A stretch of 64,000 nt of DNA from a virus. The first letter of the stretch is position 1; each line of letters opens with the position of its first letter. The stretch spans positions 9,112-73,111 of the IMG/VR virus record IMGVR_UViG_3300048908_000307; one strand, given 5' to 3'. The notes beneath the pieces were generated by a model. It was not told the DNA's origin, ran no database searches, and was given only the letters and a program-made list of their open reading frames with translations. Both the position numbers and the translations under genes were made by a program. Shown here one piece after another: positions 10,429 through 27,711 of the stretch.

Positions 10429-10532
10429 ACGCCCTTTGCGCCGCCCTGGCCTGCCTGTTCGCGTTCGTCGCGCTCACGCAGCCGGTCGAGGCGCGCATCG
10501 ACTACACGCCAGCCGCCCGGAGTTCGCGATGA
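10425..10532 (+). CDS. Small hydrophobic peptide
   Basis: GTG start overlaps the upstream stop; MNALCAALACLFAFVALTQPVEA. Confidence 0.45.
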   Translation: MNALCAALACLFAFVALTQPVEARIDYTPAARSSR

Positions 10533-10828: not shown

Positions 10829-10974
10829 ACACTGCCATCGCCATCACGGCGATCATCGCCGTGCTGCTCCTCGCCAGCACCATCGTCACCGCCGTCCGCG
10901 ACGTGGCCAAGGCCAAGCACCAGGCCGCCGCGCACTGCAAGACCTGCACCTGCGACAAGAGGGCAGAGTCGTGA
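10825..10974 (+). CDS. Small membrane protein
   Basis: MNTAIAITAIIAVLLLASTIVTAV; GGAGG RBS. Confidence 0.6.
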   Translation: MNTAIAITAIIAVLLLASTIVTAVRDVAKAKHQAAAHCKTCTCDKRAES

Positions 10975-11426
10975 CGGACCTGCACGGCTGGATCACCCAG
11001 CAGGTCGACAACGCGGAGACGCTCGCCGACCGGTGGCACGACATCGAATGCGACGTGCACCGTTCCCATCTCGACGCCCCGATCAGCAGCCTCAGCGATG
11101 CCCTATGCCGCTGCGGAGGCCCAACCGCAGCTCGGCGCCGCTGTGCCGCCGACCGGAAGATCCTCGGTGATCACACCACCTTCGGTGACGACAGTGTCCA
11201 CTGCATCGGCTGCGGGATCGACTACGAGAGCGGCCCGCTCGTCGACAACGTCAACGACTGCCCGACGCTCCTCGCGCTCGCGGAGGGCTACGGACTGACG
11301 CCGGAAATCCTCGCCGGACTCGACCGGCCACAGGCGCCCGAGCCCAAACGACGCGGGCCCACGCCCGACACCCGCCGTGTCCCGCCCGCCCTGCGCGGCC
11401 CCAATTGGAAAGGCACCACAGCATGA
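10971..11426 (+). CDS. DUF6221-like hypothetical protein
   Basis: LHGWITQQV...RRCAADRKIL..H...CPTLLALAEGYG pattern. Confidence 0.65.
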   Translation: MTDLHGWITQQVDNAETLADRWHDIECDVHRSHLDAPISSLSDALCRCGGPTAARRRCAADRKILGDHTTFGDDSVHCIGCGIDYESGPLVDNVNDCPTLLALAEGYGLTPEILAGLDRPQAPEPKRRGPTPDTRRVPPALRGPNWKGTTA

Positions 11427-12376
11427 AGACGCTCGTGACCGGCGGCGCCGGGTTCATCGGTACATGGATCAGGCGAGAGCTTCTCTCGCGCGGCCACACG
11501 GTCCTCGTCATGGACCACCAGGACCGCCGCCAGCAGCTGGCGCCCGGCGAGGAGTTCTTCCTCGGCGACGTCCGCGACGCCACCGCCGTAACGGAGGCTG
11601 CCGCGCACTGCGAGGGAATCATCCACCTCGCCGCCGTCCTCGGCACCCAGGAGACGATCAGCAACCCGCGCCCATCGGCGGAGACGAACATCCTCGGCTC
11701 GCTGAACGTCTTCGAGGCTGCCACGCAGTACAACCTGCCCGTCGTCTACGCAGGGGTGGGCAACCACTTCATGCGGCTCCAGGGAACCGGCTGCTACACG
11801 ATCACCAAGAGCGCCGCCGAGGATCTGGCGAGGATGTACAACCTCTACCGGGACGGCGGTCGGATCACCATCGTCCGCCCCGTCAACGCCTACGGCCCCG
11901 GCCAGAGCGTCGCCGCCCCCTACGGCACCAGCAAGGTTCGCAAAATCGCGCCCTCCTTCGCGTGCCGCGCCCTCGTCGGCAGCCCCATCGAGGTGTACGG
12001 GGACGGCACCCAGATCTCCGACTGCGTGTACGTCGCCGACGTCGCCCGCGCGTTCGTCACCGCGCTCGAGCACACCGCCGTCAACGGGCCCACCGAACAC
12101 CCCGTCGAGGTCGGGCCGCTGGAATCCCTCACCGTCAACGACATCGCCCGCCTCGTCGCCGAGGAAGCCACCCGCTACACGGGCCGCGAGCCGGTCGCGA
12201 TCAAGCACCTGCCGATGCGGCCCGGCGAGATCCCCAACGCGGTCGTCACCTCCGACACGTCCACGCTCCAGCAGATCGGCATGACCGCCGCCGACTTCGT
12301 GCCGTTGGACGAGGGCATCCACCACACCGTCCGCTACTACGCCGAGCAGTGGCTCCCCGGGTATCTGGCGGCCTGA
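11423..12376 (+). CDS. NAD-dependent nucleotide-sugar epimerase/dehydratase (extended SDR)
   Basis: MKTLVTGGAGFIG, IIHLAA, YTITK (YxxxK), NAYGPGQ, YVADVA. Confidence 0.92.
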   Translation: MKTLVTGGAGFIGTWIRRELLSRGHTVLVMDHQDRRQQLAPGEEFFLGDVRDATAVTEAAAHCEGIIHLAAVLGTQETISNPRPSAETNILGSLNVFEAATQYNLPVVYAGVGNHFMRLQGTGCYTITKSAAEDLARMYNLYRDGGRITIVRPVNAYGPGQSVAAPYGTSKVRKIAPSFACRALVGSPIEVYGDGTQISDCVYVADVARAFVTALEHTAVNGPTEHPVEVGPLESLTVNDIARLVAEEATRYTGREPVAIKHLPMRPGEIPNAVVTSDTSTLQQIGMTAADFVPLDEGIHHTVRYYAEQWLPGYLAA

Positions 12377-12377
12377 C

Positions 12378-13394
12378 GTGCGCATCCACATGTGGTCGGC
12401 CGACGAGGCAGGTTCCGCCCTGTACCGGGCGATCCTGCCCGGCATGAGCCTGCAGTGGCTCGGGCACGCCGTGTCCGCCGGGATGCGGCTCCCGAAGGAC
12501 TGGCCCGCCCTGGACGTCGTCGCCGGCTGCCGCGTCGCCAAACCGGAGCCGACCATGATGTGGCAGCGGCTGAAGGACGACGGGAAGAGGTTGATTCTCG
12601 ACCTCGACGACGACTACTTTCACCTCGACCCCGCCAACCAGGCCGCCGTCCGCACCTGGGACAAGGCGATGCTGCAACGCCTCGCCGACAACATGGCGCT
12701 CGCCGACGTCGTCACCTGCTGCTCCGAACCGCTGGCCGCCGTCCTGCGGGACTACGCGGTCGACGTCCGGGTCATCCCCAACGGGCTGCCCGCGCAGTAC
12801 CTCGGCACGCCCCGCGACTACCAGGCGAAGGACCGGCCGCTGTCCGTGGGCTGGGCCGGCACGTCGTCCACGGTCGCCGAACTCCCGGAGGCGGTCCGGG
12901 CTCTGAACCGGATCTCCCACTACCCGCGGCCCGGTGGCGTGCAGGTCCGCATCGTCGGCATCAGCCCCGAGCACGCGATGGCGCTCGGTCTCCGCGGCAG
13001 GCAGATCGGTGCGTTGGGCTGGGTGGAGCGGCACGAGCACTACATGCAGGCGGTCGGCGAGTGGGACGTGTGGGTGGCGCCATACCGGGACATCCCGTTC
13101 AACCGGGCGAAGTTCGCAACCAAATTCCTCGAGGCGTCGATCCTCGGCATCCCGCTGATCGCGTCGGACATCGAGCCGTACCGGCGGGTGATCCGGCATG
13201 GGGAGAACGGGTTCCTCGTCCGGTACGAGCACGAGTGGGGGCGCCTGCTGAAGCAGTTGGCGGACGACCCTGAGCTGCGGCAGCAGATCGGCATGACGGC
13301 CCGCGGGGAAGCGTCCGGGTCGATCCTTCAGGCACTCAACCGACAGTGGGAAGCGGCGCTCTCTGCGCCCGCGGCAGAGAGGACAGCAGCATGA
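12378..13394 (+). CDS. Glycosyltransferase, GT-B fold (GT4-like)
   Basis: DLDDDY, VRVIPNGLP, VGWAG, FNRAKFATKFLEASILGIPLIASD..PY, ENGFLV. Confidence 0.88.
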   Translation: MRIHMWSADEAGSALYRAILPGMSLQWLGHAVSAGMRLPKDWPALDVVAGCRVAKPEPTMMWQRLKDDGKRLILDLDDDYFHLDPANQAAVRTWDKAMLQRLADNMALADVVTCCSEPLAAVLRDYAVDVRVIPNGLPAQYLGTPRDYQAKDRPLSVGWAGTSSTVAELPEAVRALNRISHYPRPGGVQVRIVGISPEHAMALGLRGRQIGALGWVERHEHYMQAVGEWDVWVAPYRDIPFNRAKFATKFLEASILGIPLIASDIEPYRRVIRHGENGFLVRYEHEWGRLLKQLADDPELRQQIGMTARGEASGSILQALNRQWEAALSAPAAERTAA

Positions 13395-14239
13395 TTGACG
13401 GTCACAAGGTGGCTTGTTGGACCCCGTTCGGCCGGGAAAATACCGTGTCGATCCTGGTGAAGTACATCGAGCGGGAGGTGAAGCGCGGCATCGTCGATGA
13501 GTACATCCTGTACATGAACACCGACGACAGCCAGGTCAGCGACCGCGCCTACGGCTACCAGCTCGCCGAGCAGTACGACTGGATCCGCATCATCGAGCGC
13601 CCGATGAAGCACCCCGGGCCGAAGCAGCGCTCGACCGGATACGCGTACCGGTCCTTCACCGACCTCGAAACGATCTACGTCCGTTTCGACGATGACGTGG
13701 TGTTCGTGGACGACGCGGCCATCGAGAACCTCGTCCGCAAGAAGATCGAGATGGAGCCGTCGAAGGCGATCTTCCCGATCATCTGGAACAACGCGCTCGT
13801 CTCCTGGTACCTCCAGCAGTGCGGCACCATCCCCCGCGAATGGGGCGAGGTCTCCCCGTACTGCATGGACCCGGTTGGCTGGGCCAACGGCCCGTTCGCG
13901 GTGAAGATGCACGAACTCCTGCTCGGCCACATCGAGGCCGGAACCGTCGAGCAGGTCTACATGTACCAGGACTTCCCGATCAAGCTCGGAGAGCAGTTCT
14001 CCGTGTCCTGCTTCGCCTCCGCCGGGAAGGACTACGCGGCCCTCGAACAGCCCGGCGTCCTCGTGCCGGACGAGGAGGAAAACTTCCACACCGTGCACTG
14101 GCCGCGCGTGACCGGCCAGCCGAACATCCTCATCGGCAACGCCGTGGTCTCCCACTTCTCATTCTTCCCGCAGAGGCCCTTCCTGGACGCCTCGGGCGTC
14201 CTCGACCGGTACCGCGAACTCGCAGACAAGGTGGCGTGA
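13391..14239 (+). CDS. Glycosyltransferase, GT-A-like fold
   Basis: WTPFGR, YVRFDDDVVFVD (DxD motif). Confidence 0.75.
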   Translation: MIDGHKVACWTPFGRENTVSILVKYIEREVKRGIVDEYILYMNTDDSQVSDRAYGYQLAEQYDWIRIIERPMKHPGPKQRSTGYAYRSFTDLETIYVRFDDDVVFVDDAAIENLVRKKIEMEPSKAIFPIIWNNALVSWYLQQCGTIPREWGEVSPYCMDPVGWANGPFAVKMHELLLGHIEAGTVEQVYMYQDFPIKLGEQFSVSCFASAGKDYAALEQPGVLVPDEEENFHTVHWPRVTGQPNILIGNAVVSHFSFFPQRPFLDASGVLDRYRELADKVA

Positions 14240-14445
14240 TGGGCACGCAAATCAGCGTCGAGGACGCCTTCCCCGTCTACCGGAAGCGGTGCGGCGAGCT
14301 GTTCGACGAGACCCTCGTCCTGCGTGCGCAGGTCGAGGTGCTGGAGCGGCGCGTGAAGGAGCTCGAAGACGACGCGCAGCAGCCGCCGGCTGGCGGCCCG
14401 GATCTGGCCGCGCAGCCGCCGTACCCGGAGGTCGAGCCGGGTTAG
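14239..14445 (+). CDS. Small coiled-coil protein, last gene of the glycosylation operon
   Basis: TGATG coupling; ELFDETLVLRAQVEVLERRVKELE. Confidence 0.7.
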   Translation: MGTQISVEDAFPVYRKRCGELFDETLVLRAQVEVLERRVKELEDDAQQPPAGGPDLAAQPPYPEVEPG

Positions 14446-16065: not shown

Positions 16066-18981
16066 TCAAACTCGGAATGACCAGAAGTAGACGCCCCCAG
16101 CCCCGTTCAGGGCGGGGCTGATGGTGACCGTGAAACCGGTCGTCGAGTTGGCGCTGAGGCAGTCGGAGTGGACGATGTCGTCCTCGACGGTGTGCACCAT
16201 GCGCGTAATCGACGCCCGCGTGGCGCCGTAGCCGACGCTTAGAGATGTTGCTCCGGAGAATCCGACGCGGCCCATCATCAGACCCTGCGTCGCCCCGAGA
16301 TCTGAAAAGTCTTCCCATCGGCCATAGTGGCGCGTTTGGCCACCACTCATGAAGTACATTTGGTTTGTGGCCGACGTGGAATTATCGAAGCCCACCCACG
16401 CGAAGTTGGCGTCACCATAGAACTTCCCACCGCTTGGGAAATTTGCGTTCACCTGGTTGATGTCCGCATAGACGCTGCCGCCGTCTACCCCGCCGCGGTT
16501 GAACCCGGCGAGAAGCGATGCTGTTTGCGCCCACACGAAGCCGCCTCGACGAGTCTGGTCATCTGCGCGGATGACGGCCAGCTGCGCCGCACCGGTGCCG
16601 AGATAGTTGCGGGAGATGACCTGTGTGCCGGTGCCGTCGTCGTAGGGCGACGAGTTCATGCCGAGATTGACGTCCGTGCCTGACGAAACCGCGTTGATGT
16701 AGCCGTAGTCAGTGCCGGTGTTGGCGTACCAGCGGATCTCGGGCAAGTAGGTGCTGGTCGGGTTGATCTCGATGCGCTTGCCGGAGGTGCCGGACTTGAG
16801 CTGGCCGATGATGGACACGGAACCGTCGGCAGCGGCGATGGAGACGGTCTGATCCCCGGCAGCGTTCCACGCCCCGATGCCGCCGCTGTTGAGCTCGACG
16901 CGGGACCCGGTGTCGGAGGTCTTGATGCGGGCGGCGACGACCCAGTCGGCGTTGATCTGCCCTGCGGTGACCTTGGAGACGGTCAGGTCGGAGATGTGAG
17001 CGTCGTCGATGAGCAGGGCCGTCGAGCTTGCCGCGTCTGACGGCCCGCTCTTGTTGCCGGTCATATCGACGGCCACGACCCGCACGTAGCGGGTACTGAC
17101 CTCCTCGACCTGCACGGTGGCGACGACGGGAATCTGCGCCTGAATCATGCCCGCCGTCGCGGAGACTTTCGCCTTGAGGGTCGTAGCGGACGGTGTGAAC
17201 GTGGGCTCGTAGTCGACGTGGATCTCCAGATGATGGAGGTCCGATTCCAAGTTGTACGTGCCGCCACTCGACTTGCCCAAGGTGTGGGTGACCTGCACGG
17301 CGATCCGTGACGCGGCCACCGACGGGGCAGCCGGGGTGCTGGGCGGAATGTTGTCGGCGCTGGCCACGAACGTCGTCGTGCCCGACCAGGCCCCCGTGTT
17401 GCCCGTCTTGTCGACAGCCCGGATCTGTACGTCGTAGCCGATGCCCGGGGACAGGTCCGTGAGCTGCGCCGTGGTATCGCCCCACGCCGCGTACACCGTC
17501 AACCACTTGCCGGTGGGGGCGGCGAACGGTTGCCGCCACAGCTGCATGTCCTGCCACCGGATCTGCGACACCTGCGACCACGTCGCCGGATAGATCATGT
17601 CCGTGTCGACGGCATACCGGATCTCGTAGTGATCCCCGTCCAAGACGGTGCTGCCGTCGACGTTCAAGGGCGCGTTCCACTGGACGATCGTCCGCGCCCG
17701 GGTGAAACCCCGCCCGTCTAGGTAGGCGGCACCCGAGAACGGGGTCACGAACACCGGCGTGCCGGGGATGCTCGTGTCGGCGTTCGGCCTGCTCCCGACG
17801 GGCTCCGTCGACGAGTTCGCGAGCTGGCGGGAGAAATCGCCGACCGTCACCGTGTTGGTGCCGTCGGTCTCCCACTCCATGTACTGGGTGAGGTCGATCC
17901 AGGTCCCGGTAGCACTGCGGTAGGCGACCGTGTATCCGGTGGTGATCGCCCAGCTGGTTTCGGTGACCTGGAGTTTCAGCGGGTTGAGGCGCAGCCCACG
18001 GAACGTGATCTCGGTGCTGGTGTCGACGAGCCCGGAGTCTGGGTCGTACACCCACACCCGGTCGCCGACCTGGAAAGACCCGTGGACGTCGTAGTCGGCT
18101 GTCGACAGCGTCAGCGCGTTGCGGGTGGAGACGAACTGCGACAACGCCAACTGCGCCCGCGTCGCCGCGTTCCCGGTCGCCGTGTCCGACTCGGAGACAA
18201 GGCGTGTGAGCTTCAGGGCGTTGCCGTGGATGTCCCGGTACGGCGTCGCCGGGGAAATATCCGCCGCCCCCGTAGCAATGCTGGTGCCCTGCCCCTCCGC
18301 GAGGAGGACCACGCGGGTGCTGTAGTCCTCCATGTCGCGGGTGACGTCCATCGAGCCGGGGAGCGCCCGCAGCGCCATGTCTTCGCCGGCGCCGTTCGCG
18401 AGGATCACGCACGTCGGGTTGGTGACGAACAGCTGGCTGTCGGGGCCCGCATCCAGGGTGCCGTTGCCGTTGACGCGCCAGGACACGGGCACCGAGGTGG
18501 TGGACATGGTGTCGCACACGTAGCCGATGGCGGACCGCGGGGATTCGTACTGGTGGTGGCCGGTGTACTGGCCTGCCACGGAGTAGATGGTGCCCGCGGT
18601 GACGGCGCCCGCCCCGGACGCGGGGAGCAGCATGTTGATGGTGGTGGCGAATGAGGCGGACGCGGGCGTGACCGCGTTTTCGTAGACGGCGCCTTTGCCG
18701 TCTTCGTCGCCGAGCCACATGGCCATGCCGACGCCGCCGATGGCGAGGTCGTCCTGAGGGGCGCTGGTGCGGCCGTCGTCGCCAATCGTCTTAGTGCGCA
18801 GCACGCCGACGTAGCGGGCGGTCGTGAGCAGGTTGTCGCCGTACTGCAGCGGGTCCAGCCGCCCGGGGACGATCGCGACATGGCCGAAGTAGTCGAGCGC
18901 GTCGAGGACGTCGCGGGGTGTCCCGGGCTGGAGTTTGATCCCCCACGAGCCGAGTGCTTTGAGAACTTCCTGAACAGCCAT
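16066..18981 (-). CDS. Large minor tail protein (Tal/hub-like) with fibronectin-III-like domains
   Basis: 971 aa; LSPGIGYDVQIRAVDKTGNTGAWS and YVRVVAVDMTGNKSGPS FN3 patterns. Confidence 0.85.
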   Translation of the reverse strand: MAVQEVLKALGSWGIKLQPGTPRDVLDALDYFGHVAIVPGRLDPLQYGDNLLTTARYVGVLRTKTIGDDGRTSAPQDDLAIGGVGMAMWLGDEDGKGAVYENAVTPASASFATTINMLLPASGAGAVTAGTIYSVAGQYTGHHQYESPRSAIGYVCDTMSTTSVPVSWRVNGNGTLDAGPDSQLFVTNPTCVILANGAGEDMALRALPGSMDVTRDMEDYSTRVVLLAEGQGTSIATGAADISPATPYRDIHGNALKLTRLVSESDTATGNAATRAQLALSQFVSTRNALTLSTADYDVHGSFQVGDRVWVYDPDSGLVDTSTEITFRGLRLNPLKLQVTETSWAITTGYTVAYRSATGTWIDLTQYMEWETDGTNTVTVGDFSRQLANSSTEPVGSRPNADTSIPGTPVFVTPFSGAAYLDGRGFTRARTIVQWNAPLNVDGSTVLDGDHYEIRYAVDTDMIYPATWSQVSQIRWQDMQLWRQPFAAPTGKWLTVYAAWGDTTAQLTDLSPGIGYDVQIRAVDKTGNTGAWSGTTTFVASADNIPPSTPAAPSVAASRIAVQVTHTLGKSSGGTYNLESDLHHLEIHVDYEPTFTPSATTLKAKVSATAGMIQAQIPVVATVQVEEVSTRYVRVVAVDMTGNKSGPSDAASSTALLIDDAHISDLTVSKVTAGQINADWVVAARIKTSDTGSRVELNSGGIGAWNAAGDQTVSIAAADGSVSIIGQLKSGTSGKRIEINPTSTYLPEIRWYANTGTDYGYINAVSSGTDVNLGMNSSPYDDGTGTQVISRNYLGTGAAQLAVIRADDQTRRGGFVWAQTASLLAGFNRGGVDGGSVYADINQVNANFPSGGKFYGDANFAWVGFDNSTSATNQMYFMSGGQTRHYGRWEDFSDLGATQGLMMGRVGFSGATSLSVGYGATRASITRMVHTVEDDIVHSDCLSANSTTGFTVTISPALNGAGGVYFWSFRV

Positions 18982-18986
18982 CCGTG

Positions 18987-20651
18987 CTACCTCCGGACTC
19001 CGTAGACGGCTTCCGGCATGCAGGCGATGTACTGGTTCCGCAGGTCTGTGGCGGCGTCCCCTGAGGCGACTGGCAGGCGCAGGCGGACTTCGTCGACGAC
19101 GATCACGTCCGTGACGGGCGGGAAGTTCGCGACAGTCGGCGCGATCGTTGCGGTGGCGGCGTTGGCAGGCGCGGTGACGGTGCCGTCATAGAAGGTGTAC
19201 GTGTTGGCCGCGAGTGCGTTGGTGAGGGTGCTTGTCGACAGGTAGGCGGCGGCGGCATTGAACCAGTTGATGTTCAAGTCGACGCTGCGGGCGGTGGCGC
19301 AGCGAATCCACGCGGACGCCCGGTAGATGGTGCCCGCAGTGACGGGGACCGGGTTGGATTCGATGCTGGGGAACTGGGCGACGCCATTGGGCGTGAACTG
19401 GGCTGCTCCCGTGCCGACCTTGACGGGGGTGGTGACGCGGACGCCGGTGCCGCCATTGGAATTCCAGCCGGTGATGTTGGTGTCGAAGTCCGGGTTGGCG
19501 TTGAGGGTGCCGCCGCCTCCCGCCGCAGCAGACACGCCGAGCCAGAAGTCGAGTGTCGTCGTGGTGTTCTTCTGTACACCGCCGTTGGCGTGGGCAATGA
19601 AGGTCCGAGCGGAACCGCAGGCGAAACGGTTGCCATCACTGTCGTCGTTGGTGGCGGTCAGGTAGCCCTGCGCGGACGTGTCGACGAACGCCTCCGCCGT
19701 ATTGAGGCGGATCTTCAGCTGGTCAGCGGCCGTGCCGACCTGCATGTAGCCCTCGACGATGCGGGAACCGCGCCGGAGAGTGAGGTCGATCGTAAACCGG
19801 CCCGGATTGAGGGCTTTGACCAGGCGGAGGATCGCCATTTCGGGGTCGTTCCGCAGCAGGGTGGCTGCGTCCCAGGCGCCGCCGACGAGTCCGCTGGACG
19901 AGTAGAAGGGGCTCCATAGCTTCGACCGGTAGGCGCCGCCCGTGTAAGCCTGCACGTCAAAGCTGCCGCCACCGGTCGCCGACCAGGTGACGTTGATCAG
20001 GCCGTTGGTAATGGACCAGCCGGTCGCGGCAAGGGGCACGTCGACGCCGTACACCTCCTGCCCGCCGGTGGTCGTCGCGCGGACTCGGCCGGCGAGGTAG
20101 GCGGTGGGGAGGCAGCCCCAGCGGGGCGAGACGTTGGCGGGGACGGTCCGGTAGACGGTGATGGTGCCGTCGGCGCCGGTGCGGGTCATCGTGGTCGGGT
20201 TGGTGGCGCCGGTGTAGTAGCCGTAGTGGCCGATCGGCGGGGCGTGCCAGCGCTCCCCGGTGAGGGCGAAGTCGTTCAGTCGGACGGCGCCGGTGAGCCT
20301 GCTCTGCAGATCGGTTTCGGCGTCGGAACCGACCCGGTCCAGGGAGACCTTCCAGGAGCTGGTGACGGCCTCGTTGAGGTACTCGGTGTAGGTCGCCCCA
20401 GAGCTCTTCACCGCGTAGTAGCCGTTCCGCTCGGGCTTGTCGGTGAAGGTGACCGGGATGACGGCGCCGGGGATCAGGGAGTTGATGCCGTCGTGCCGGG
20501 CGATGACCTGCGCCCGGGTGAGCGGCGGATACGACTCCTGGCCTTCGAGGTCGAGGCCACGGCCGTCACCTCCGCCGGACTCGGTAGCGACGAACGTCTC
20601 GCGGAGGGGAATGCGGCCGAGCTGGAGGTCGCCCCAGTTGAACAGGCTCAT
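18987..20651 (-). CDS. Distal tail (Dit-like) protein with C-terminal carbohydrate-binding-module-like domain
   Basis: Position after the TMP; NANPDFDTNITGW...YRASAWIR...WFNA...VDEVRL CBM4/9-like pattern. Confidence 0.7.
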   Translation of the reverse strand: MSLFNWGDLQLGRIPLRETFVATESGGGDGRGLDLEGQESYPPLTRAQVIARHDGINSLIPGAVIPVTFTDKPERNGYYAVKSSGATYTEYLNEAVTSSWKVSLDRVGSDAETDLQSRLTGAVRLNDFALTGERWHAPPIGHYGYYTGATNPTTMTRTGADGTITVYRTVPANVSPRWGCLPTAYLAGRVRATTTGGQEVYGVDVPLAATGWSITNGLINVTWSATGGGSFDVQAYTGGAYRSKLWSPFYSSSGLVGGAWDAATLLRNDPEMAILRLVKALNPGRFTIDLTLRRGSRIVEGYMQVGTAADQLKIRLNTAEAFVDTSAQGYLTATNDDSDGNRFACGSARTFIAHANGGVQKNTTTTLDFWLGVSAAAGGGGTLNANPDFDTNITGWNSNGGTGVRVTTPVKVGTGAAQFTPNGVAQFPSIESNPVPVTAGTIYRASAWIRCATARSVDLNINWFNAAAAYLSTSTLTNALAANTYTFYDGTVTAPANAATATIAPTVANFPPVTDVIVVDEVRLRLPVASGDAATDLRNQYIACMPEAVYGVRR

Positions 20652-23600
20652 CGGGCGCGCTCCTTGTTCCACTTGCGGATGGCTTCATTGATGTCGCTGG
20701 CCATCGCGGTGGCGAACTGCTTGCGCTCCGACGGGCTCGGCATCGTGAGGCTGTTCACGGTCATGTTGACGATGACGTCTCCAACTCCTGGGCCGCCGCT
20801 CGCCAGGAGCGCGTCGAGCCTGGCCGTGTGGTCCGCGGACAGGACCCGCTCGGGGCGGCCGGTGGCGTTGACGGACATCGTCGCCCCGGGCTGGAGCAGG
20901 CCGCCGCTGTCGAACTTGGCGGCGGGGGCGAAGCCGTACCGGTCGGTGAACAGACCATCGTTGTAGCCGCGCGCGGACTTGCCCATGTGGACGCCGGCGC
21001 CGCCGCTGGACTCGACGTTCATGCCGCCGAGGGTGCCCGCCGTGTGGCCCACGCCCGCATTCGTGATGCCGATCATGAACGGGGAGTTCAGGTTCCGCAC
21101 CCAGCCGGCGGGAGCCGTGTTGCCGGAGAACGATCCGGTCGCCCACCGGCGGTGCGGACGCTCCCCGCGGATCACGGACTCGATGGCGGACATCAGACCG
21201 GAGCAGTTGTGGCTGATGAGTCCGTCCGAGACGAACGAGTGCGAGTCCTGGACCTCGATGTCCCAGGTCTCCTCCATGCCGTCTGGTTCCACGGAGAGCA
21301 CTCGCTGCACCGACATGCTCTCGGTCCTCAGCTGCGCCATGAGGCGGAGCAGGCCGGGGCGGTGGCCAGCGCCAGTTGTCTGGTTGGCGCCCCGTCCCGG
21401 TGCAACCTCAATGCTGTGGATCGGACGGGCGTTCTCGATCTTCTTCCCGCCGATATAGACGTCCTTGGTGCGCGCCCGGGTGTTGGTCACCGAGACACGG
21501 TCGCCGCGGCGCAGATGCATCTCCCGGACGCCCTCGATGAGTTCGCGGGACGTGGCCTTGTACTCAATGAGTTCTGCCGTCTCGAAGGTGGCGCCGTTCT
21601 TGCCGTTCTTGTACGAGCCGTCACCGTCGGCGTACCCCCGGAGGAAGGCATCTTGTGCGCCCTGGCTCCATTCCATGACGACGGGCGGGATCGTGCGCTC
21701 GTGGGACTTGCCATGGAACCCGTTGCGGATCATCCATCGAACCCGCTGGACGTCGCTGATCATCACGCCATGGCGCGGGTGGTGGGTGACCCTCCGGTTC
21801 GGCGAGTACTTGCGGAGCACGGCCATCGCCTTCTCGGCGAGATCGTCGTACACGCAGATCCGGATGCCGCTGTTCTGATTGACGCTGCCGTCGGCCAGCC
21901 AGAGCCCCATCAGCCAGGCCAGGTCCTCCGGTACTTCCTCACCGCCTTCCTTCGGTGAACCGGTGTAGGTGACCAAGTAGTCGGTCGGGGTGAGGTCGCG
22001 GACTTCCTTCCACTCCGTGCCCCACTCGGCCCCGGCGACGCGCTCGTCCACGTCCATCATCGGCCGCTTGACGGGGGCAGCAACGAGCACGCGGTGCCCA
22101 GCAGTTGCCCGGATGGAACGGTTACGGGTGCGGACCTTGAACAGCTCCTGCTCCCCAGTGTTCCACTTGGCCAGCACCTTGGACGCGACGAGCTTGCCGT
22201 CTTGGTAGGCCATCACTTCCATGCCGGGGTGAAGGTCGCGAAGTTCGGTGTGGCCCTGCGGAGTTGTAATCATGGACGAAAGAGTAAGGCAGTCCCATGA
22301 TGGGTTTCCGTTTCCGGCCCACTGATAGGGCAAGCCGTCCTGGGTCTTCACCCACGACATCGCCCGCTGTACGGCCGGCCCGCCCACGGCTTTTTTGTCC
22401 TCGTTGCCGAACCAGCCGAGCATCCCGTCGACGCCTTTGTTGACGAGGTCGCGCATGAGGTTGCCGATGCCGCTGTTCGGGATCTGGCCGATGAGGGGGC
22501 GGACGAGGGCGCTGAGGGCCTTCTGTGCGGCAGCCTTCAGCCCGCCGAGGACGAGGTCTTTCGTCCAGGAGGCGGCGGAGCTGATCGCGCCGCCTATCGC
22601 GTCCGTGACGGTGCCGATGATCCCGCCGCCCGCGAAGCCCTGTGCGGGCTGGTGCATCTTGCGTTCTTGCTGGCTGGTCGGATTGCCGCCGGTTTTGGTG
22701 GGGCGGTCTTGGCCGAGCAAGGCGTCGATGCCGCGGTGGCCGCCAAGCTTGGCGACTTGGCTGTTGGAGAGGATGCGTTCGCCGGGGGTGAGCATGGCGG
22801 GGACGGTGTCCCGGTTGCCGCTGCCGGGGACGACGCCGCCCTTGTTGAAGCCGAGGCTGATCGACGGGAGGGTGATCTTCGAGCTGATCTTTCCCGCGAT
22901 GGAGTTCCACATGCGGCGGATGCCGTTGTTGTAGACGGTGTTCACTACGAACCGCACGGGGCTAGCGATCTTCGACTTCACGCCGTCCCAGATCGTGCCG
23001 AGCGCGTCCTTCAGCGTGGAGAATGCCGTCTTCATCGCCGACTTGAAGGTGTCGATCTTCGTGCGGATCGTGGAGAAGATCCCGCTGATCTTGTCGCTCG
23101 CCCCGTTCCATAGCGCGTTCCATGTGGTCGTGACCGCGGTCTTCACGCCGGCGACGCCGTTCTTCACCGCCGTCCAGGCGTTGGAGATCGCGGTGCGCAG
23201 ACCGGTCCAGAAGGAGTCCCACTTCGTGCGGACCTTGTCCCAGAGGGTGTTCCACGTCGTCACAACCCAGTTCTTCAGGTCGGTAAAGATCTTCTTCGTG
23301 CCGGTCCACAGCGACCCGAACCAGCTGATGATGGCGTTGACCAGGTCCGGGATGATCGAGTGGCCGACGAGCTTGTCGTAGAGCCACTGGAAGGCGTCGA
23401 CAATCCAGCCCACCACCTTCTTCACCCCGTCAGCGAGAGCGGTCAGCCAGCCGATCACCGTCGTGATAGCAGGTACCAGCAGGTTGACCGCCCCAGCCAG
23501 TACGGTCGCCAGCAGCGTCGCCAGCCCGGTGATCAGCGGCATCAGCGGAGTGATCACCTGCATGGCCAGCTGCAACAGAGACGCGATGAGCTGACTGATC

Positions 23601-26368
23601 GGCGGGAGCAGCGGCGTCAACGCCGTCAGCAGCTGCGGGAAAAGAGGCGCCATCGCACCCAGGAACTGGCCCACGAGCTGCACCGCCGGCAGCAGGGCCG
23701 TGATGACCGGGGTCAGCCCCTTCGCCAGGGCCGCGATGAACGGCACCAGGGAGTCGAGCAGGGTCTTGATGAACGGTGCGATGGCCTTGATGACGGTGGC
23801 GATCAGGTTGCCGATGGGCTGCAGTAGCGGCATGACCGCCTGCACCAGGCCGACGAGGACGCTGCCGACGTCCTTCACGACGGGCAGCAGGGCGGTGATG
23901 ATCGGCATCAGGGCTTTGCCGAGCGCGCCAGCCAGTTCTGCGAGGACCGGCCCGAACTTTTCGGCGAGGTCGGTCACCACGGGCGCCAGTGCAGCGAGCA
24001 GCGGAAGCGCTGCCTGGATGACCGCGCCGAGTGTTCCCGCGACCAGTTTGGCGATGGCGTTGATGGCCGTAAAGATCGAGGTCAGGGCCTTCTGCACTTC
24101 AGGCATTGCGGTGATCTTGCGGAGTTCCTTGAACACCGCGCCGATCCCGCCCAGCGCGTCACCGCCCGCAGCCCCGGCGGCTTTCATGATGTTGCCGAGG
24201 GTCCCGAAAATGTCCCCGGCCAGGTGCCCGAACTGCTTGGCGATGTCGACGGCCTGGTCGATGATCTTTTCCAGGTGGCCGGACTTGAACGCCTGAGTGA
24301 GCTGCTGGGAGAACCGGTCGAACACCCCTCCGGCCGCCGTCGTGATCCTCTTGAACGCCGGGGACGCGGCAATAGATACCTGCGCGAGGCCCTTGATGAA
24401 CTGACCCGGGATCCGACTGAGGGGCTTCAGCCCGCCGTTCAGGCCGTCGAACATCCGCCGCAGCATGCCGGTCTTACCAAGCTCGGTGACTGCGCTCGCG
24501 GCGTTCTTCGCCATACCGTTCAGAACCGTCGCCGTGCCCGTCAGCCCGGTCTTCAGGGACGGCAGGACGGCCGACGACATGGTCGTAAACGTCTGCCCTA
24601 GGCCAGCGAACAATGCGTTCTGTACATCGAGCTTGAGGCCGCGCCAGGCCTCGCGCTGAGCGAGGACCGCGTTGACGAACGCCCGCGCATTCGGGGCGAG
24701 CTTTGCCAGGGCGTTGCCGACCTTGTTCGTCGCCACGGCGCCGGCCGTCTGCGCTTCCGCCAGGGCGCGTGCCGCGTCTGCGGCGGCGGCCTGCGCGTCG
24801 GCGATCTGTCGGGCGCCGTCGACGGCAGCCTTCGCGGCAGCGGCGCGCGCATCGGACAGATCCCGCTGAGCCTTTGCGATCTTCTGGGCGCCGTCGACCT
24901 GCTGCCGTGCCGCCTCGATCTCGGCGTCTTTCAACGCCTGCGTCTTGTCCTTGACCGTCTGGTTGGCGTCGGCAATGTTCTGCTTGGCCTGGGTGACCTT
25001 GGCGCTGCCTTCGACACCGGCTTTGTTTGCGGCGTCGGCCTGGTCCTGCAACCGCTTCGTTTCGGTCTGCTGCTCGCTGAGGGCCTGGAGTGCCTGGTCG
25101 TAGGCGAGTTGGTCCTTGGCGAGCTGCTCGGCGGACACGTTCGCGCCTGCGGCCTTGTCGGCGGCGAGCCTCTTCTCGGCGTCCTGGAGGTTGAGGACGT
25201 CCTGCCGTTCGTTGAGGCGGGCGTCCTTCAGCCTGTTGTCGAGGTCCTCGAGTTCCATGGCCGCGTCTTTGCGGGCCTGGGTGAGGTCGAGCTGTGCCTG
25301 CCGGGATGCGCGCTGGGCGGTGGCGAGGTCCCGCTCCGCGTTGGCGACAGATTCGGCTGCCCGCCGGTTGGCGTCGGCGACGTCGGACACCGTGTTCTTG
25401 AGGTTGAGCTGGGCGTCCTGGATCTGCCGGGCAGCCTGCACGCGGGCCGCGGCGGCGGCAACCTCTGCGTCCTTCACGCCCTGCTGGGCCTTGGCCAAGC
25501 TGCGCTGGGCGTTCTCGACCTGCCGGATCGACTTGCTGGCCGCGCCCGCACTGGATGTGGCCGGCGCGAAGGCCGCCTTGAAGGCATCGCCAATGCCGCT
25601 CGTGCCGATCTTGATTGCGGCGAAGGCCGCGCCGAGCGACAGCACGGCGGGGGCCGCGACAGCAGCAGCGGGCCCCATCTGGATGATGGCCTGCCCCAGC
25701 GAAGCCACGGTGGGCAGCGCGCCGACGGCGATGCTGGACAGGCTGGTCAGGCTGGAGACGAGCCCGCCAAGCCCTCCCCCGCCGCCCCCGAGGCTGGACA
25801 GGGCCGACCGGTCGACGTCGACGCGCACGTTGGCGTGGCGGTCGCGGGTCAGGGCGTCGAGGCGGGCGCGTGCGGCGGCGTCATTGAGGTTGACGCCAAC
25901 GGTCATGTCCCGGCGGCGGGTGAGGTTGGCGAGGGAGTCGGCGGCGACGCGGGTGTCGACGTCGACACCGATACGGACCTGGCGCCGCTGGATCAGGTTG
26001 CGGATCTCCGCCGCGGCGACCCGGGTGTCCACGCTGGCCCGGATGTTGACGACGCGCTCGGCGGTGAGCCGGTCGAGCTGGGCTTGGACACGCCGGAGTG
26101 CCGTGTCGTTCATCTTCGGCGTGACGGTGACGTCAAGGTCTCGCAGGCGGAGGCGTGACAGTGCCGTCTCGTCGACCTTGATCCTCGCGGTGATGATGCG
26201 TTCGCGGGCGAGGCGGTCCAGTTTGGCGATGGCGGCCCGGTCATCCAGGTCGACGCCGACCTTGACCTTCTGGTCCTTGGACTTGAGGCGGGACATGGCG
26301 CGGTCGTAGGCGGACTCGTCGGCCGTAACCTCGACATAGCCCTCAGCGATCCTGAAGCTACCCGCCAC
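20648..26368 (-). CDS. Tape measure protein with intein-interrupted NlpC/P60 domain
   Basis: 1906 aa, Ala-rich coiled-coil and amphipathic repeats, follows the tail chaperone; PYQWAG..WD|CSG..GHTAG. Confidence 0.93.
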   Translation of the reverse strand: MAGSFRIAEGYVEVTADESAYDRAMSRLKSKDQKVKVGVDLDDRAAIAKLDRLARERIITARIKVDETALSRLRLRDLDVTVTPKMNDTALRRVQAQLDRLTAERVVNIRASVDTRVAAAEIRNLIQRRQVRIGVDVDTRVAADSLANLTRRRDMTVGVNLNDAAARARLDALTRDRHANVRVDVDRSALSSLGGGGGGLGGLVSSLTSLSSIAVGALPTVASLGQAIIQMGPAAAVAAPAVLSLGAAFAAIKIGTSGIGDAFKAAFAPATSSAGAASKSIRQVENAQRSLAKAQQGVKDAEVAAAAARVQAARQIQDAQLNLKNTVSDVADANRRAAESVANAERDLATAQRASRQAQLDLTQARKDAAMELEDLDNRLKDARLNERQDVLNLQDAEKRLAADKAAGANVSAEQLAKDQLAYDQALQALSEQQTETKRLQDQADAANKAGVEGSAKVTQAKQNIADANQTVKDKTQALKDAEIEAARQQVDGAQKIAKAQRDLSDARAAAAKAAVDGARQIADAQAAAADAARALAEAQTAGAVATNKVGNALAKLAPNARAFVNAVLAQREAWRGLKLDVQNALFAGLGQTFTTMSSAVLPSLKTGLTGTATVLNGMAKNAASAVTELGKTGMLRRMFDGLNGGLKPLSRIPGQFIKGLAQVSIAASPAFKRITTAAGGVFDRFSQQLTQAFKSGHLEKIIDQAVDIAKQFGHLAGDIFGTLGNIMKAAGAAGGDALGGIGAVFKELRKITAMPEVQKALTSIFTAINAIAKLVAGTLGAVIQAALPLLAALAPVVTDLAEKFGPVLAELAGALGKALMPIITALLPVVKDVGSVLVGLVQAVMPLLQPIGNLIATVIKAIAPFIKTLLDSLVPFIAALAKGLTPVITALLPAVQLVGQFLGAMAPLFPQLLTALTPLLPPISQLIASLLQLAMQVITPLMPLITGLATLLATVLAGAVNLLVPAITTVIGWLTALADGVKKVVGWIVDAFQWLYDKLVGHSIIPDLVNAIISWFGSLWTGTKKIFTDLKNWVVTTWNTLWDKVRTKWDSFWTGLRTAISNAWTAVKNGVAGVKTAVTTTWNALWNGASDKISGIFSTIRTKIDTFKSAMKTAFSTLKDALGTIWDGVKSKIASPVRFVVNTVYNNGIRRMWNSIAGKISSKITLPSISLGFNKGGVVPGSGNRDTVPAMLTPGERILSNSQVAKLGGHRGIDALLGQDRPTKTGGNPTSQQERKMHQPAQGFAGGGIIGTVTDAIGGAISSAASWTKDLVLGGLKAAAQKALSALVRPLIGQIPNSGIGNLMRDLVNKGVDGMLGWFGNEDKKAVGGPAVQRAMSWVKTQDGLPYQWAGNGNPSWDCLTLSSMITTPQGHTELRDLHPGMEVMAYQDGKLVASKVLAKWNTGEQELFKVRTRNRSIRATAGHRVLVAAPVKRPMMDVDERVAGAEWGTEWKEVRDLTPTDYLVTYTGSPKEGGEEVPEDLAWLMGLWLADGSVNQNSGIRICVYDDLAEKAMAVLRKYSPNRRVTHHPRHGVMISDVQRVRWMIRNGFHGKSHERTIPPVVMEWSQGAQDAFLRGYADGDGSYKNGKNGATFETAELIEYKATSRELIEGVREMHLRRGDRVSVTNTRARTKDVYIGGKKIENARPIHSIEVAPGRGANQTTGAGHRPGLLRLMAQLRTESMSVQRVLSVEPDGMEETWDIEVQDSHSFVSDGLISHNCSGLMSAIESVIRGERPHRRWATGSFSGNTAPAGWVRNLNSPFMIGITNAGVGHTAGTLGGMNVESSGGAGVHMGKSARGYNDGLFTDRYGFAPAAKFDSGGLLQPGATMSVNATGRPERVLSADHTARLDALLASGGPGVGDVIVNMTVNSLTMPSPSERKQFATAMASDINEAIRKWNKERAR
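21206..22291 (-). mobile_element. Intein (362 aa) with LAGLIDADG homing endonuclease
   Basis: Starts CLTLSS, block B RATAGH, LMGLWLADG and FLRGYADGDG, block F TWDIEV, ends ISHN followed by Cys. Confidence 0.95.
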
Positions 26369-27147: not shown

Positions 27148-27711
27148 CTAGCTGGTCTGATCGACCACGTGGATCGGGCTGATCGACGCGGACACGTAGT
27201 GGCCGCTGAACTTCACGGCGTACATGGTCTTCTTCTCCTTGGTGTAGTCCAGGTCGATGGCGTCCGTGGACAGGGCCTTGCGGACGATGACGCGCCGGTT
27301 GAAGGTGCCGCCCGGCGCCCAGCCGTCGAACAGGAGCGCCTTGTAGGTCGGCTGGGTGGCCGAGCTCGCGAAGCTGGGCTCGAACGAGGCGTAGCCCGCA
27401 GCCGAGGCGCTGGTGCCGCCGTTGAGGGCCAGCGATAGGTTCGCGAGGGTCGGCTCGGCCATCGACGTCTCGACGGTGAAGTCCCGCTTCGTCAGGCGGC
27501 TGCCGACGCGGTCGACGATCTGGTCGACGTCGAGCTCGGTGTACGACTGGGCGATGGTCAACTTGACGCCGCCGTCAGTGCCGCCGACATCCGTCCACGA
27601 CGAGGCGGGCGGCGTGGTGTTGACGGCAGCGTCGGCCGGTTCGGTCGCGCCGAAGGCTCCGCTGTACAGGGTCGCGGGGCCCTGAACAAGATTGGTCGCA
27701 GTCACCGACAT
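27148..27711 (-). CDS. Major tail (tube) protein
   Basis: NLVQGPATLY...WTDVGGTDGGV..TI...ELDVDQ; canonical position. Confidence 0.88.
   Translation of the reverse strand: MSVTATNLVQGPATLYSGAFGATEPADAAVNTTPPASSWTDVGGTDGGVKLTIAQSYTELDVDQIVDRVGSRLTKRDFTVETSMAEPTLANLSLALNGGTSASAAGYASFEPSFASSATQPTYKALLFDGWAPGGTFNRRVIVRKALSTDAIDLDYTKEKKTMYAVKFSGHYVSASISPIHVVDQTS

What the first reader, a model, noticed from the sequence alone, without database searches (positions are those of the whole stretch)
21206..22291. LAGLIDADG intein inserted at the catalytic cysteine of an NlpC/P60 domain in the tape measure protein
Seen: the TMP reads GLPYQWAGNGNPSWD|CLTLSS...(362 aa)...ISHN|CSGLMSA...GHTAG, with intact splicing blocks and two LAGLIDADG motifs. 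Removing it restores the NlpC/P60 DCSG motif and gives a 1544-aa TMP. Known: inteins favour active-site residues, and the phage inteins I know are mostly in terminase, portal, helicase and methylase genes; I do not recall one in a tape measure. Inference: the +1 nucleophile is the hydrolase's catalytic Cys, so splicing gates both cell-wall penetration and the correct tail-length ruler. It could act as a conditional (redox, temperature, metal) switch on infectivity, and it defines a homing site in a virion gene.
Basis: partly seen in the sequence, partly recalled or inferred. Interest (0 to 1): 0.82.

Follow-up and report, generated by a model that had tools for sequence, protein, structure and literature searches.

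The report
Mobile intein splitting tape-measure cell-wall hydrolase
A self-splicing, self-copying protein element (an intein with a homing endonuclease) sits exactly at the catalytic cysteine of a cell-wall-cutting domain in a Streptomyces phage's tail tape measure protein. It is real and recently mobile, but it is an ordinary selfish intein in a little-described location, with no sign that it acts as a regulatory switch.

Summary
Observation confirmed to the base. The tape measure gene (window 20648-26368, minus strand, 1906 aa) carries a 362-aa class 1 intein at 21206-22291. It has Cys1, a TxxH block B, blocks F and G ending in HN, Cys+1 and two LAGLIDADG motifs.

Removing it gives WDCSG and a 1544-aa protein. 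Phage Kromp and over 100 Streptomyces prophage tape measure proteins have exactly this uninterrupted form.

The flanks belong to a divergent NlpC/P60 domain. Pfam scores it just below cut-off, but an AlphaFold model of an empty allele matches only NlpC/P60 peptidases, and Cys, His and Glu are invariant in 86 relatives.

The intein is mobile. It is 93-98% identical in DNA between tape measure genes whose flanks are 45-65% identical, and it is scattered on the extein tree. dN/dS is about 0.07, including the endonuclease domain.

A homologous intein (35% identity) sits one codon downstream (DC|SG, Ser+1) in other Streptomyces alleles and in Gordonia phage BearBQ.

A 2025 preprint already lists tape measure inteins, BearBQ included, without noting the hydrolase site. 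This scan had also found tape measure inteins on other DNA.

Nothing supports the "conditional switch" idea. Verdict: new member of a known kind, of moderate interest.

The parts
20648..26368 (-). Tape measure protein precursor gene (1906 aa plus stop), GTG start
   Evidence: Open frame. The N-extein matches PHROG tape measure families (phrog_6090, E 2.8e-133). It lies between a major-tail-protein-like ORF (27148-27711) and minor-tail-protein-like ORFs (18987-20672, 16066-18981).
22292..26368 (-). N-extein (aa 1-1359); its last ~30 residues (22292-22381) are the N-terminal part of the NlpC/P60-like domain, ending ...PYQWAGNGNPSWD
   Evidence: Empty alleles continue directly into CSG.
21206..22291 (-). 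Class 1 intein, 362 aa (aa 1360-1721): Cys1 ... His-Asn
   Evidence: Coordinates. Pfam and NCBIfam intein models score above cut-off. Foldseek top hits are the TliVMA, PI-SceI and PI-PfuI inteins. Splicing residues are invariant in 15 alleles.
22085..22111 (-). Intein block B (RATAGHRVL; T63-x-x-H66)
   Evidence: H66 is invariant.
21392..21937 (-). LAGLIDADG homing endonuclease domain (intein residues ~119-300)
   Evidence: AlphaFold pLDDT is 75-92 over this part. Foldseek matches I-DmoI, I-Tsp061I and PI-SceI. dN/dS is 0.04-0.06.
21881..21919 (-). LAGLIDADG motif 1 (AWLMGLWLADGSV; D134 and G135 invariant)
21614..21649 (-). LAGLIDADG motif 2 (AFLRGYADGDGS; D224 and G225 invariant)
21206..21268 (-). 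Intein blocks F and G (TWDIEVQDSHSFVSDGLISHN), ending in the penultimate His and terminal Asn
   Evidence: D344, H351, H361 and N362 are invariant. The stretch aligns to the C-termini of the DnaB and DnaX mini-inteins.
21203..21205 (-). Cys+1 (aa 1722): C-extein splicing nucleophile and predicted catalytic Cys of the NlpC/P60-like domain
   Evidence: It is the invariant C71 of alignment A2. It sits at the N-terminus of helix 71-82 in the model. It aligns to the DCSG of the solved NlpC/P60 autolysin 7cfl.
20921..21205 (-). C-terminal part of the NlpC/P60-like domain in the C-extein, with predicted His1775 (21044-21046) and Glu1786 (21011-21013)
   Evidence: H124 and E135 are invariant in 86 relatives. 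Model pLDDT is above 92. All top 50 Foldseek hits in the PDB are NlpC/P60 peptidases, except rank 48, endolysin LysIME-EF1, whose title does not say. Coordinates.
20648..21205 (-). C-extein (aa 1722-1906 plus stop)
   Evidence: It is 49-77% identical to the C-exteins of other alleles.

Best explanation
The insert is a canonical class 1 intein carrying a double-motif LAGLIDADG homing endonuclease. It lies in the tape measure gene of a temperate Streptomyces siphophage, between Asp and Cys of the DCSG motif of a divergent NlpC/P60-type cell-wall peptidase domain.

Shown here:
- The element is in frame and exactly delimited against many uninterrupted alleles.
- All splicing and endonuclease residues are intact and under strong purifying selection.
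- The same intein DNA (93-98% identical) sits in tape measure genes that are otherwise 45-65% identical.
- Short donor-type flanks travel with it.
- It is scattered among intein-less sisters on the extein tree.

Inferred:
- After translation the intein splices itself out. Cys1 makes the thioester, Cys+1 (the future catalytic Cys) attacks it, and Asn362 cyclises. This leaves a seamless 1544-aa tape measure protein with an intact Cys-His-Glu hydrolase.
- The freed 362-aa protein cuts intein-less DCSG-coding sites in co-resident phages or prophages. Repair then copies the intein in.
- It persists at this site because the DNA encoding the catalytic motif is the most conserved stretch of an otherwise fast-evolving gene.
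- Splicing has to be efficient. An unspliced precursor would lack hydrolase activity. It would also be a longer, bulkier ruler inside the tail tube.

Overall it is a selfish element. I see no sign that it is a regulatory device.
For: Boundaries and length.

Intein and LAGLIDADG profile matches above cut-offs.

Invariant residues in 15 alleles: C1, H66, D134/G135, D224/G225, D344, H351, H361, N362.

Structure: the endonuclease part of the model is confident, and Foldseek hits are HEN-bearing inteins and I-DmoI.

Empty alleles:
- Kromp, AbbeyMikolon and 109 of the 123 other proteins classified (120 database hits plus three phage tape measure proteins) are uninterrupted.
- All 27 uninterrupted tape measure hydrolase loci found when 301 Streptomyces genomes were sampled read WDCSG at the site.

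NlpC/P60 fold and triad.

Mobility:
- Intein versus N-extein protein identity is 95% vs 34% for P0009 and 84% vs 30% for P0012.
- DNA identity is 93-98% inside the intein and 45-64% outside for S. kaempferi, changing within 12 nt on the 5' side and 9 nt on the 3' side of the junctions.
- The rare-codon flank CCATCATGGGAC is shared by 3 of 4 occupied alleles and by 0 of 27 empty ones.
- Type A inteins sit at five separate positions among empty sisters on the extein tree.
- dN/dS is 0.07-0.10 overall and 0.04-0.06 in the endonuclease domain.
Against: - No experiment shows splicing or DNA cleavage.
- The Hint part of the AlphaFold model has low confidence (pLDDT below 50 in many segments), probably because only 15 sequences were aligned.
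- The hydrolase domain scores below Pfam's NlpC/P60 gathering cut-off (19.7-21.1 vs 23 bits) and only over profile positions 1-23. No enzymatic activity of this domain family has been shown.
- The S. kaempferi genome keeps an empty allele beside an occupied one. So homing is not happening between those two copies. The late gene may be silent in lysogens, or the target may differ (4 mismatches within 9 nt of the site).
- The extein tree is biased, because divergent intein-bearing alleles were retrieved through the intein itself.
Confidence: 0.9

Rival explanations
1. The intein would be retained because splicing responds to redox state, temperature or metal ions. One route is a Cys1-Cys+1 disulfide trap. 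Such control would time or gate maturation of the tape measure hydrolase and tail assembly, and so infectivity.
For: Cys1 and Cys+1 flank the intein, and Cys+1 is the hydrolase nucleophile. The precursor therefore cannot be an active hydrolase. Redox-trapped inteins with Cys1/Cys+1 exist elsewhere (general knowledge, not tested here). In TM4, a tape measure hydrolase motif matters for infecting stationary-phase cells and counts toward tail length (PMC1796659).
Against: - The intein is absent from the window's closest allele (P0016, 92% identical), from 109 of the 123 other proteins classified, and from all 27 uninterrupted loci found in 301 sampled Streptomyces genomes.
- Its DNA moves between unrelated tape measure backgrounds.
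- The endonuclease is under purifying selection, as expected for a homing element.
- The homologous type B intein at the adjacent position uses Ser+1, with the catalytic Cys at -1.
- Splicing would occur in the reducing cytoplasm before tail assembly.
Confidence: 0.06
2. Decaying or splicing-dead intein. The insertion would have inactivated the hydrolase, or the whole tape measure protein, in a defective prophage.
For: Embedded tape measure hydrolase motifs can be dispensable for plaque formation (TM4 mt3, PMC1796659). Some carriers are prophages in genome assemblies whose activity is unknown.
Against: - All 15 alleles keep an open frame and every splicing and endonuclease residue.
- dN/dS is 0.07-0.10.
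- The host record is an 88%-complete virus contig with a complete tail module around the gene.
- A 362-aa globular insert in each of three copies inside the tail lumen is hard to reconcile with assembly. This is an inference from the trimeric tape measure protein in the tube of phage Douge (PMC13033339).
Confidence: 0.03
3. Bacterial intein-like (BIL) or Hint autoprocessing domain. It would cleave the tape measure protein rather than splice it, producing two fragments as a maturation step.
For: Hint domains that only cleave exist in secreted and phage proteins. This scan noted a BIL-type insert in another phage's tape measure protein (e1-3262578; not tested here).
Against: - The element has the full canonical set: Cys1, TxxH, HN and Cys+1.
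- It has a homing endonuclease domain, which BILs lack.
- It interrupts a single globular domain whose two halves are contiguous in hundreds of homologues. Only ligation gives a sensible product.
Confidence: 0.01

Closest known systems
Gordonia phage BearBQ gp17 tape measure intein (class 1, LAGLIDADG; intein cluster 53 in Gosselin, Arsenault and Gogarten, bioRxiv 10.1101/2025.01.02.630785)
   Same: The two inteins are homologous over their full length, 35-38% identical, including both LAGLIDADG motifs. Both sit in a tape measure protein and in the same DCSG motif. It is the only homologue among 50,697 deposited phage genomes.
   Different: The BearBQ intein is inserted one codon downstream: GDC|C...HN|SG. 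It therefore uses Ser+1, and the hydrolase Cys is the -1 residue (preprint supplementary files 8 and 11). The host is Gordonia. The extein is only 21-36% identical. The preprint tabulates the site but does not mention NlpC/P60, peptidoglycan or an active site.
Type B tape measure inteins in Streptomyces prophages (P0015, P0017, P0019, P0207)
   Same: Same tape measure family: the P0015 extein is 68-73% identical to the window's. Same motif and same architecture, with about 35% intein identity.
   Different: The insertion point is WDC|C...VVHN|SG, with Ser+1. Intein DNA identity to the window's is only 51%.
Classical homing-endonuclease inteins (PI-SceI/VMA1, TliVMA, PI-PfuI) and phage inteins in terminase, portal, RNR and DnaB
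   Same: Hint splicing domain split by a double-motif LAGLIDADG endonuclease. Insertion at a catalytic motif of a conserved domain. Sporadic distribution and homing signature.
   Different: The host here is a virion structural protein with an embedded cell-wall hydrolase, not a nucleotide-handling enzyme. Sequence identity to those inteins is 20-26%.
Cell-wall hydrolase motifs embedded in actinophage tape measure proteins (TM4 mt3, Barnyard Rpf motif; Piuri and Hatfull 2006, PMC1796659) and the homologous domain of mycobacteriophage Douge gp16 (PDB 8zdo)
   Same: A peptidoglycan-hydrolase-type domain lies inside the C-terminal third of a long tape measure protein. Douge gp16 residues 1249-1424 align to this domain with E 2e-12.
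   Different: None of those carries an intein. TM4 mt3 is a different motif family. The Douge domain is not resolved in the cryo-EM map; only residues 1658-1699 are.
Gordonia phages Twinkle and Mcklovin tape measure inteins (intein cluster 104 of the same preprint)
   Same: LAGLIDADG class 1 inteins in tape measure proteins.
   Different: They show no detectable sequence similarity to this intein at E 1e-3. The Twinkle insert begins near aa 1466, upstream of an intact SLT transglycosylase domain and not in an NlpC/P60 motif. Its exact boundaries were not worked out here.

Membership tests
Class 1 (canonical) intein | Cys or Ser at intein position 1 | tested here: met
   Cys1360 (codon 22289-22291), invariant in 15 alleles
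Class 1 (canonical) intein | Block B TxxH | tested here: met
   T63-A-G-H66 within RATAGHRVL. H66 is invariant. Type B alleles have SxxH.
Class 1 (canonical) intein | Blocks F and G with a conserved Asp and His, a penultimate His and a terminal Asn | tested here: met
   D344, H351, H361 and N362 are invariant. The stretch aligns to the C-termini of the DnaB and DnaX mini-inteins.
Class 1 (canonical) intein | Cys, Ser or Thr at +1 of the C-extein | tested here: met
   Cys1722 (21203-21205)
Class 1 (canonical) intein | Match to curated intein/Hint profiles above cut-off | tested here: met
   PF14890 scores 38.6 bits (cut-off 35.8), TIGR01445 28.2 (24.5) and TIGR01443 18.9 (15.6). The Hint part of the AlphaFold model is low-confidence, but the top Foldseek hits are inteins.
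Class 1 (canonical) intein | Precise in-frame insertion relative to intein-less homologues | tested here: met
   Removal gives WDCSG, as in Kromp and more than 100 other alleles. The alignment to P0016 is gap-free and 92% identical.
Class 1 (canonical) intein | Protein splicing actually occurs | not testable with these tools
   Needs an expression assay or virion mass spectrometry
LAGLIDADG homing endonuclease (single-chain, two motifs) | Two LAGLIDADG helices, each ending in a catalytic acidic residue | tested here: met
   GLWLADG (D134) and GYADGDG (D224), invariant across type A and type B alleles. PF14528 E 2.5e-12.
LAGLIDADG homing endonuclease (single-chain, two motifs) | LAGLIDADG fold | tested here: met
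   pLDDT is 75-92 for residues 121-300. Foldseek matches I-DmoI and I-Tsp061I (TM 0.53-0.59 by target) and PI-SceI.
LAGLIDADG homing endonuclease (single-chain, two motifs) | Mobility: homing into empty alleles | tested here: met
   Indirect evidence only. Intein DNA is 93-98% identical against 45-65% in the flanks. Donor-type flank codons are shared. The intein is scattered on the extein tree. Cleavage itself was not testable.
NlpC/P60 (Pfam PF00877, MEROPS C40) peptidoglycan peptidase | Match to PF00877 at the gathering cut-off | tested here: not met
   Empty alleles score 19.7 and 21.1 bits against a cut-off of 23, and only over profile positions 1-23. The split halves in the window give no hit. 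phmmer against the PDB finds the NlpC/P60 autolysin 7cfl at E 0.001 across the whole domain.
NlpC/P60 (Pfam PF00877, MEROPS C40) peptidoglycan peptidase | Papain-like NlpC/P60 fold | tested here: met
   The model of empty allele P0016 has pLDDT above 92 for residues 41-160. Its top 50 PDB hits are NlpC/P60 domains (MepS, LytE, CwlO, SagA, RipA/B and others) with probability 0.92-1.00 and TM by target 0.54-0.64 for single-domain targets. The exception is rank 48, endolysin LysIME-EF1, whose title does not say.
NlpC/P60 (Pfam PF00877, MEROPS C40) peptidoglycan peptidase | Conserved Cys-His-polar triad, with the Cys at the N-terminus of a helix | tested here: met
   C71, H124 and E135 are invariant in 86 diverse relatives. 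Helix 71-82 starts at the Cys, and His and Glu lie on consecutive strands. In the window these are Cys1722, His1775 and Glu1786. Distances within the triad were not measured.
NlpC/P60 (Pfam PF00877, MEROPS C40) peptidoglycan peptidase | Peptidoglycan endopeptidase activity | not testable with these tools
   Needs a zymogram or muropeptide analysis
Siphophage tape measure protein | Sequence family, and position between the tail tube/chaperone genes and the distal tail genes | tested here: met
   phrog_6090 E 2.8e-133 plus about 18 further PHROG families annotated as tape measure protein among the 22 matched. A major-tail-like ORF lies upstream and minor-tail-like ORFs downstream. Homologues are annotated as tape measure protein in Kromp, AbbeyMikolon and others.

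The most novel reading that the evidence does not exclude
Splicing at this site would be conditional. Cys1 and the catalytic Cys+1 could form a reversible disulfide, or splicing could otherwise respond to the host's redox or growth state. Production of assembly-competent, hydrolase-active tape measure protein, and therefore of infectious tails, would then be tuned to host physiology. A related, more modest novelty is that types A and B would document an intein that moved its insertion point by one codon within one motif, swapping its +1 nucleophile between Cys and Ser.
Probability: 0.06. Interest if true: 0.7.

Novelty: new member of a known kind. Interest (0 to 1): 0.36.

Why it matters
It adds a well-delimited, recently mobile intein allele to a host class, virion tape measure proteins, that was recognised only in a 2025 preprint. 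It also shows what the preprint did not say: the target is the catalytic Cys motif of an NlpC/P60-type cell-wall hydrolase embedded in the tape measure.

The finding offers a natural system with three states in one gene family: occupied type A, occupied type B one codon away, and many empty alleles. That makes it useful for studying homing-site choice, co-conversion and +1 nucleophile switching in phages.

There are practical consequences too. NCBI names several of these tape measure proteins "LAGLIDADG family homing endonuclease", and tail length predicted from gene length would be too long by 362 residues. A Cys+1 intein that splices in actinobacteria may also interest protein engineers.

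Tried and rejected
- Megablast of the whole tape measure gene against 50,697 phage genomes found nothing.
- A scan of IMG/VR viral contigs with the intein found no relative other than the window's own record.
- Pfam on the two separated extein halves gave no NlpC/P60 hit. The domain had to be tested on intein-less homologues.
- Pfam and NCBIfam on those homologues gave only sub-threshold NlpC/P60, RipC and p60 hits over the Cys motif. The fold assignment therefore rests on the structure model and PDB searches.
- The AlphaFold model of the intein is poor for the Hint part. I use it only for the endonuclease domain.
- I checked whether the record holds other inteins. It does not.
- I checked whether the Twinkle and Mcklovin tape measure inteins are the same element. 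They are not.
- The literature has no paper linking inteins to NlpC/P60.
The 92%-identical natural empty allele P0016 was used instead.
- I rejected a pseudogene reading, a BIL-type cleavage domain and a regulatory switch as main explanations (see rival explanations).
Full report
**1. The observation**

The window is most of a 75.5-kb IMG/VR virus record estimated 88% complete. It has about 68% G+C.

On the minus strand, 20648-26368 is a single 1906-aa open frame. Its first 1359 residues match PHROG tape measure families (phrog_6090, E 2.8e-133). It lies between a major-tail-like ORF and minor-tail-like ORFs.

The insert runs from Cys1360 to Asn1721, which is 362 aa at window 21206-22291. Removing it leaves 1544 aa. 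All motif coordinates were re-derived by translation.

**2. It is a canonical intein with a homing endonuclease**

The excised segment scores above the curated cut-offs of four models:
- Pfam Intein_splicing, 38.6 bits against 35.8.
- Pfam LAGLIDADG_3, E 2.5e-12.
- NCBIfam intein_Nterm.
- NCBIfam intein_Cterm.

It has every residue expected of a class 1 intein:
- Cys1.
- Block B T63-x-x-H66.
- Block F Asp344 and His351.
- Block G His361-Asn362.
- Cys+1.

It also has two LAGLIDADG helices ending in Asp134 and Asp224. All of these are invariant across 15 alleles.

An AlphaFold model is confident only for the endonuclease part (pLDDT 75-92). Only 15 sequences were available for the alignment. Foldseek still returns the HEN-bearing inteins TliVMA, PI-SceI and PI-PfuI first, and then I-DmoI and I-Tsp061I.

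It is the only intein in the virus record.

**3. The flanks are a divergent NlpC/P60 domain, and the +1 Cys is its nucleophile**

The two halves alone give no Pfam hit. Natural intein-less alleles give PF00877 at 19.7-21.1 bits, under the cut-off of 23, and only over the first 23 profile positions. Strict Pfam membership is therefore not met.

Other evidence supports the fold:
- phmmer against the PDB aligns the whole domain to the NlpC/P60 autolysin 7cfl (E 0.001; DCSG to DCSG, His to His).
- The same search finds the equivalent region of mycobacteriophage Douge tape measure gp16 at E 2e-12.
- An exhaustive search finds 1332 representative relatives.
- In 86 diverse relatives, D70, C71, S72, H124 and E135 are invariant.
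- An AlphaFold model of the closest empty allele has pLDDT above 92 for residues 41-160. That allele, P0016, is 92% identical to the spliced junction region without gaps. The Cys opens helix 71-82, and His and Glu lie on the next strands.
- Its top 50 PDB matches are NlpC/P60 peptidoglycan peptidases such as MepS, LytE, CwlO, SagA and RipA/B, apart from rank 48, whose title does not say.

In the window the triad maps to Cys1722, His1775 and Glu1786. Enzymatic activity remains an inference.

**4. Empty alleles and the frequency of the intein**

Streptomyces phage Kromp reads ...NPSWDCSGLVSAIESVIR, and AbbeyMikolon reads ...NPSWDCSGFM....

The following counts describe how often the site is occupied:
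- I classified 123 proteins other than the window's own: 120 database hits and three phage tape measure proteins. Of these, 109 are empty, 10 carry the same intein (type A) and 3 carry a second type (type B); the remaining one, BearBQ, also proved to be type B.
- Among 150 representatives clustered at 50% identity, only 3 have an insert at the site.
- In 301 sampled Streptomyces genomes, 26 carry the domain. All 27 uninterrupted loci read WDCSG at the site. The only occupied copy is in the genome used as the centre of the search.
- That genome, S. kaempferi, holds both an occupied and an empty allele.

**5. The intein is recently mobile**

Protein identity to the window's intein compared with its N-extein:

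| Allele | Intein | N-extein |
|---|---|---|
| P0005 | 97% | 70% |
| P0009 | 95% | 34% |
| P0012 | 84% | 30% |

At the DNA level, the S. kaempferi copy is 93-98% identical inside the intein and 45-64% identical outside. The change occurs within 12 nt upstream and 9 nt downstream of the junctions. P0009 shows 93% inside against 57% and 65% outside.

Three of four occupied alleles share the upstream flank CCATCATGGGAC. It contains two A-ending codons that are rare at this G+C content. None of the 27 empty sites has it. This fits short co-conversion tracts.

On a tree built from exteins only, type A occurs at five separate positions among empty sisters. The window itself is sister to the empty P0016 with 99% support. 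The divergent all-intein clade on that tree is an ascertainment artefact.

dN/dS is 0.07-0.10 overall and 0.04-0.06 in the endonuclease domain. Both splicing and homing functions are therefore being maintained.

The intein is slightly less G+C-rich than its flanks, with GC3 of 84.5% against 89-92%.

**6. A sister intein one codon away**

P0015, P0017, P0019, P0207 and Gordonia phage BearBQ carry an intein about 35% identical over its whole length, endonuclease included. It is inserted as WDC|C...VVHN|SG. The hydrolase Cys is therefore the -1 residue and Ser is the +1 nucleophile.

The P0015 extein is 68-73% identical to the window's, so both types live in the same gene family. I cannot decide whether this reflects a one-codon shift of a single lineage or two invasions by related inteins.

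**7. Mechanism**

Shown: anatomy, conservation, mobility, and the fold of the host domain.

Inferred:
- Standard four-step class 1 splicing gives the 1544-aa tape measure protein with a restored active site.
- The freed endonuclease cuts empty DCSG-coding sites during co-infection or in polylysogens, and repair copies the intein in.

Splicing presumably precedes tail assembly, for three reasons:
- Tape measure proteins are trimers threaded through the tail tube (Douge; PMC13033339).
- Embedded hydrolase residues count toward tail length. Deleting the 114-aa TM4 mt3 motif shortened tails by about 20 nm (PMC1796659). An unspliced precursor would be both inactive and a wrong-sized ruler.
- The TM4 mutant was viable but infected stationary-phase cells less well. 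This gives the likely role of such domains.

**8. The switch hypothesis**

No evidence supports conditional splicing. Three observations argue for a selfish element instead:
- The intein is absent from the closest relatives.
- It shows a horizontal-transfer signature.
- The neighbouring type B intein uses Ser+1.

I keep the switch reading at about 6%.

**9. What is known**

A 2025 preprint surveying PhagesDB lists tape measure protein as a new intein host class. It names three phages: BearBQ, Twinkle and Mcklovin. Its supplement gives BearBQ's site as ...GGGGACTGC|TCCGGAGCC. The text never mentions NlpC/P60, peptidoglycan or an active site.

No paper in the library links inteins to NlpC/P60.

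Among 50,697 deposited phage genomes, only BearBQ has a homologous intein, and none has type A. The Twinkle intein is unrelated and lies elsewhere in its tape measure protein.

NCBI names some type A carriers "LAGLIDADG family homing endonuclease".

This scan had already met tape measure inteins on other DNA. One of them was reported at a transglycosylase motif. I did not re-test those reports.

**10. Verdict**

The intein, the insertion site, the NlpC/P60 assignment and the empty alleles are all supported. The novelty claim is weakened by the 2025 preprint, and the regulatory idea is unsupported.

This is a new member, in practice a new insertion-site allele, of a known kind. It comes with a tidy natural homing system and a curious one-codon-offset sister intein. 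Interest is moderate.

Noticed in passing
L014/L016 (G001:C43) and L012 (G001:C41): The Streptomyces kaempferi genome carries two tape measure genes of this family. One is occupied by the type A intein (98% identical to the window's) and one is empty. The empty site, CCTTCCTGGGAC^TGTTCGGGT, differs at 4 positions within 9 nt of the insertion point from the occupied alleles' flanks. It may be an endonuclease-resistant target, or the gene may simply be silent in lysogens.
   Followed up: partly
L010:1001-6727 (P0015); L001:2422-8991 (BearBQ gp17): A homologous LAGLIDADG intein (about 35% identity) sits one codon downstream of the window's insertion point, at DC|SG with Ser+1 instead of D|CSG with Cys+1. 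It is unresolved whether this is a one-codon shift of one lineage or two separate invasions.
   Followed up: partly
L009:2521-10128 (Gordonia phage Twinkle gp18): The Twinkle tape measure intein is unrelated in sequence. It appears to begin near aa 1466 (...ADH|CVPLDV...), upstream of an intact SLT transglycosylase domain (Pfam hit 1938-2028). No His-Asn followed by Cys, Ser or Thr occurs anywhere in the protein, so its C-terminal junction is not the usual one. Its end was not located.
   Followed up: partly
L005:1-7167: The closest empty allele, P0016 (1388 aa, S. mirabilis), is preceded by a resolvase gene and HTH regulator genes, not by tail chaperone genes. It is also shorter than its relatives. 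It may be an N-terminally truncated tape measure gene in a prophage remnant.
   Followed up: no
window 18987-20672 (-): The ORF just downstream of the tape measure gene (561 aa) matches a PHROG annotated as phosphodiesterase (E 4.5e-15, residues 388-547) as well as a minor tail protein family. It may be a distal tail protein with a teichoic-acid or glycerophosphodiester-degrading module.
   Followed up: no
L011:657-3287: The S. mirabilis prophage carrying allele P0009 has two GT4 glycosyltransferase genes between its capsid and tail genes. This recalls the glycosylation operon that another first-stage note reports in this window at 10237-14445.
   Followed up: no
P0005, P0009: NCBI names whole intein-bearing tape measure proteins of 1869-1942 aa "LAGLIDADG family homing endonuclease". 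This annotation artefact hides them from searches for tail genes.
   Followed up: no
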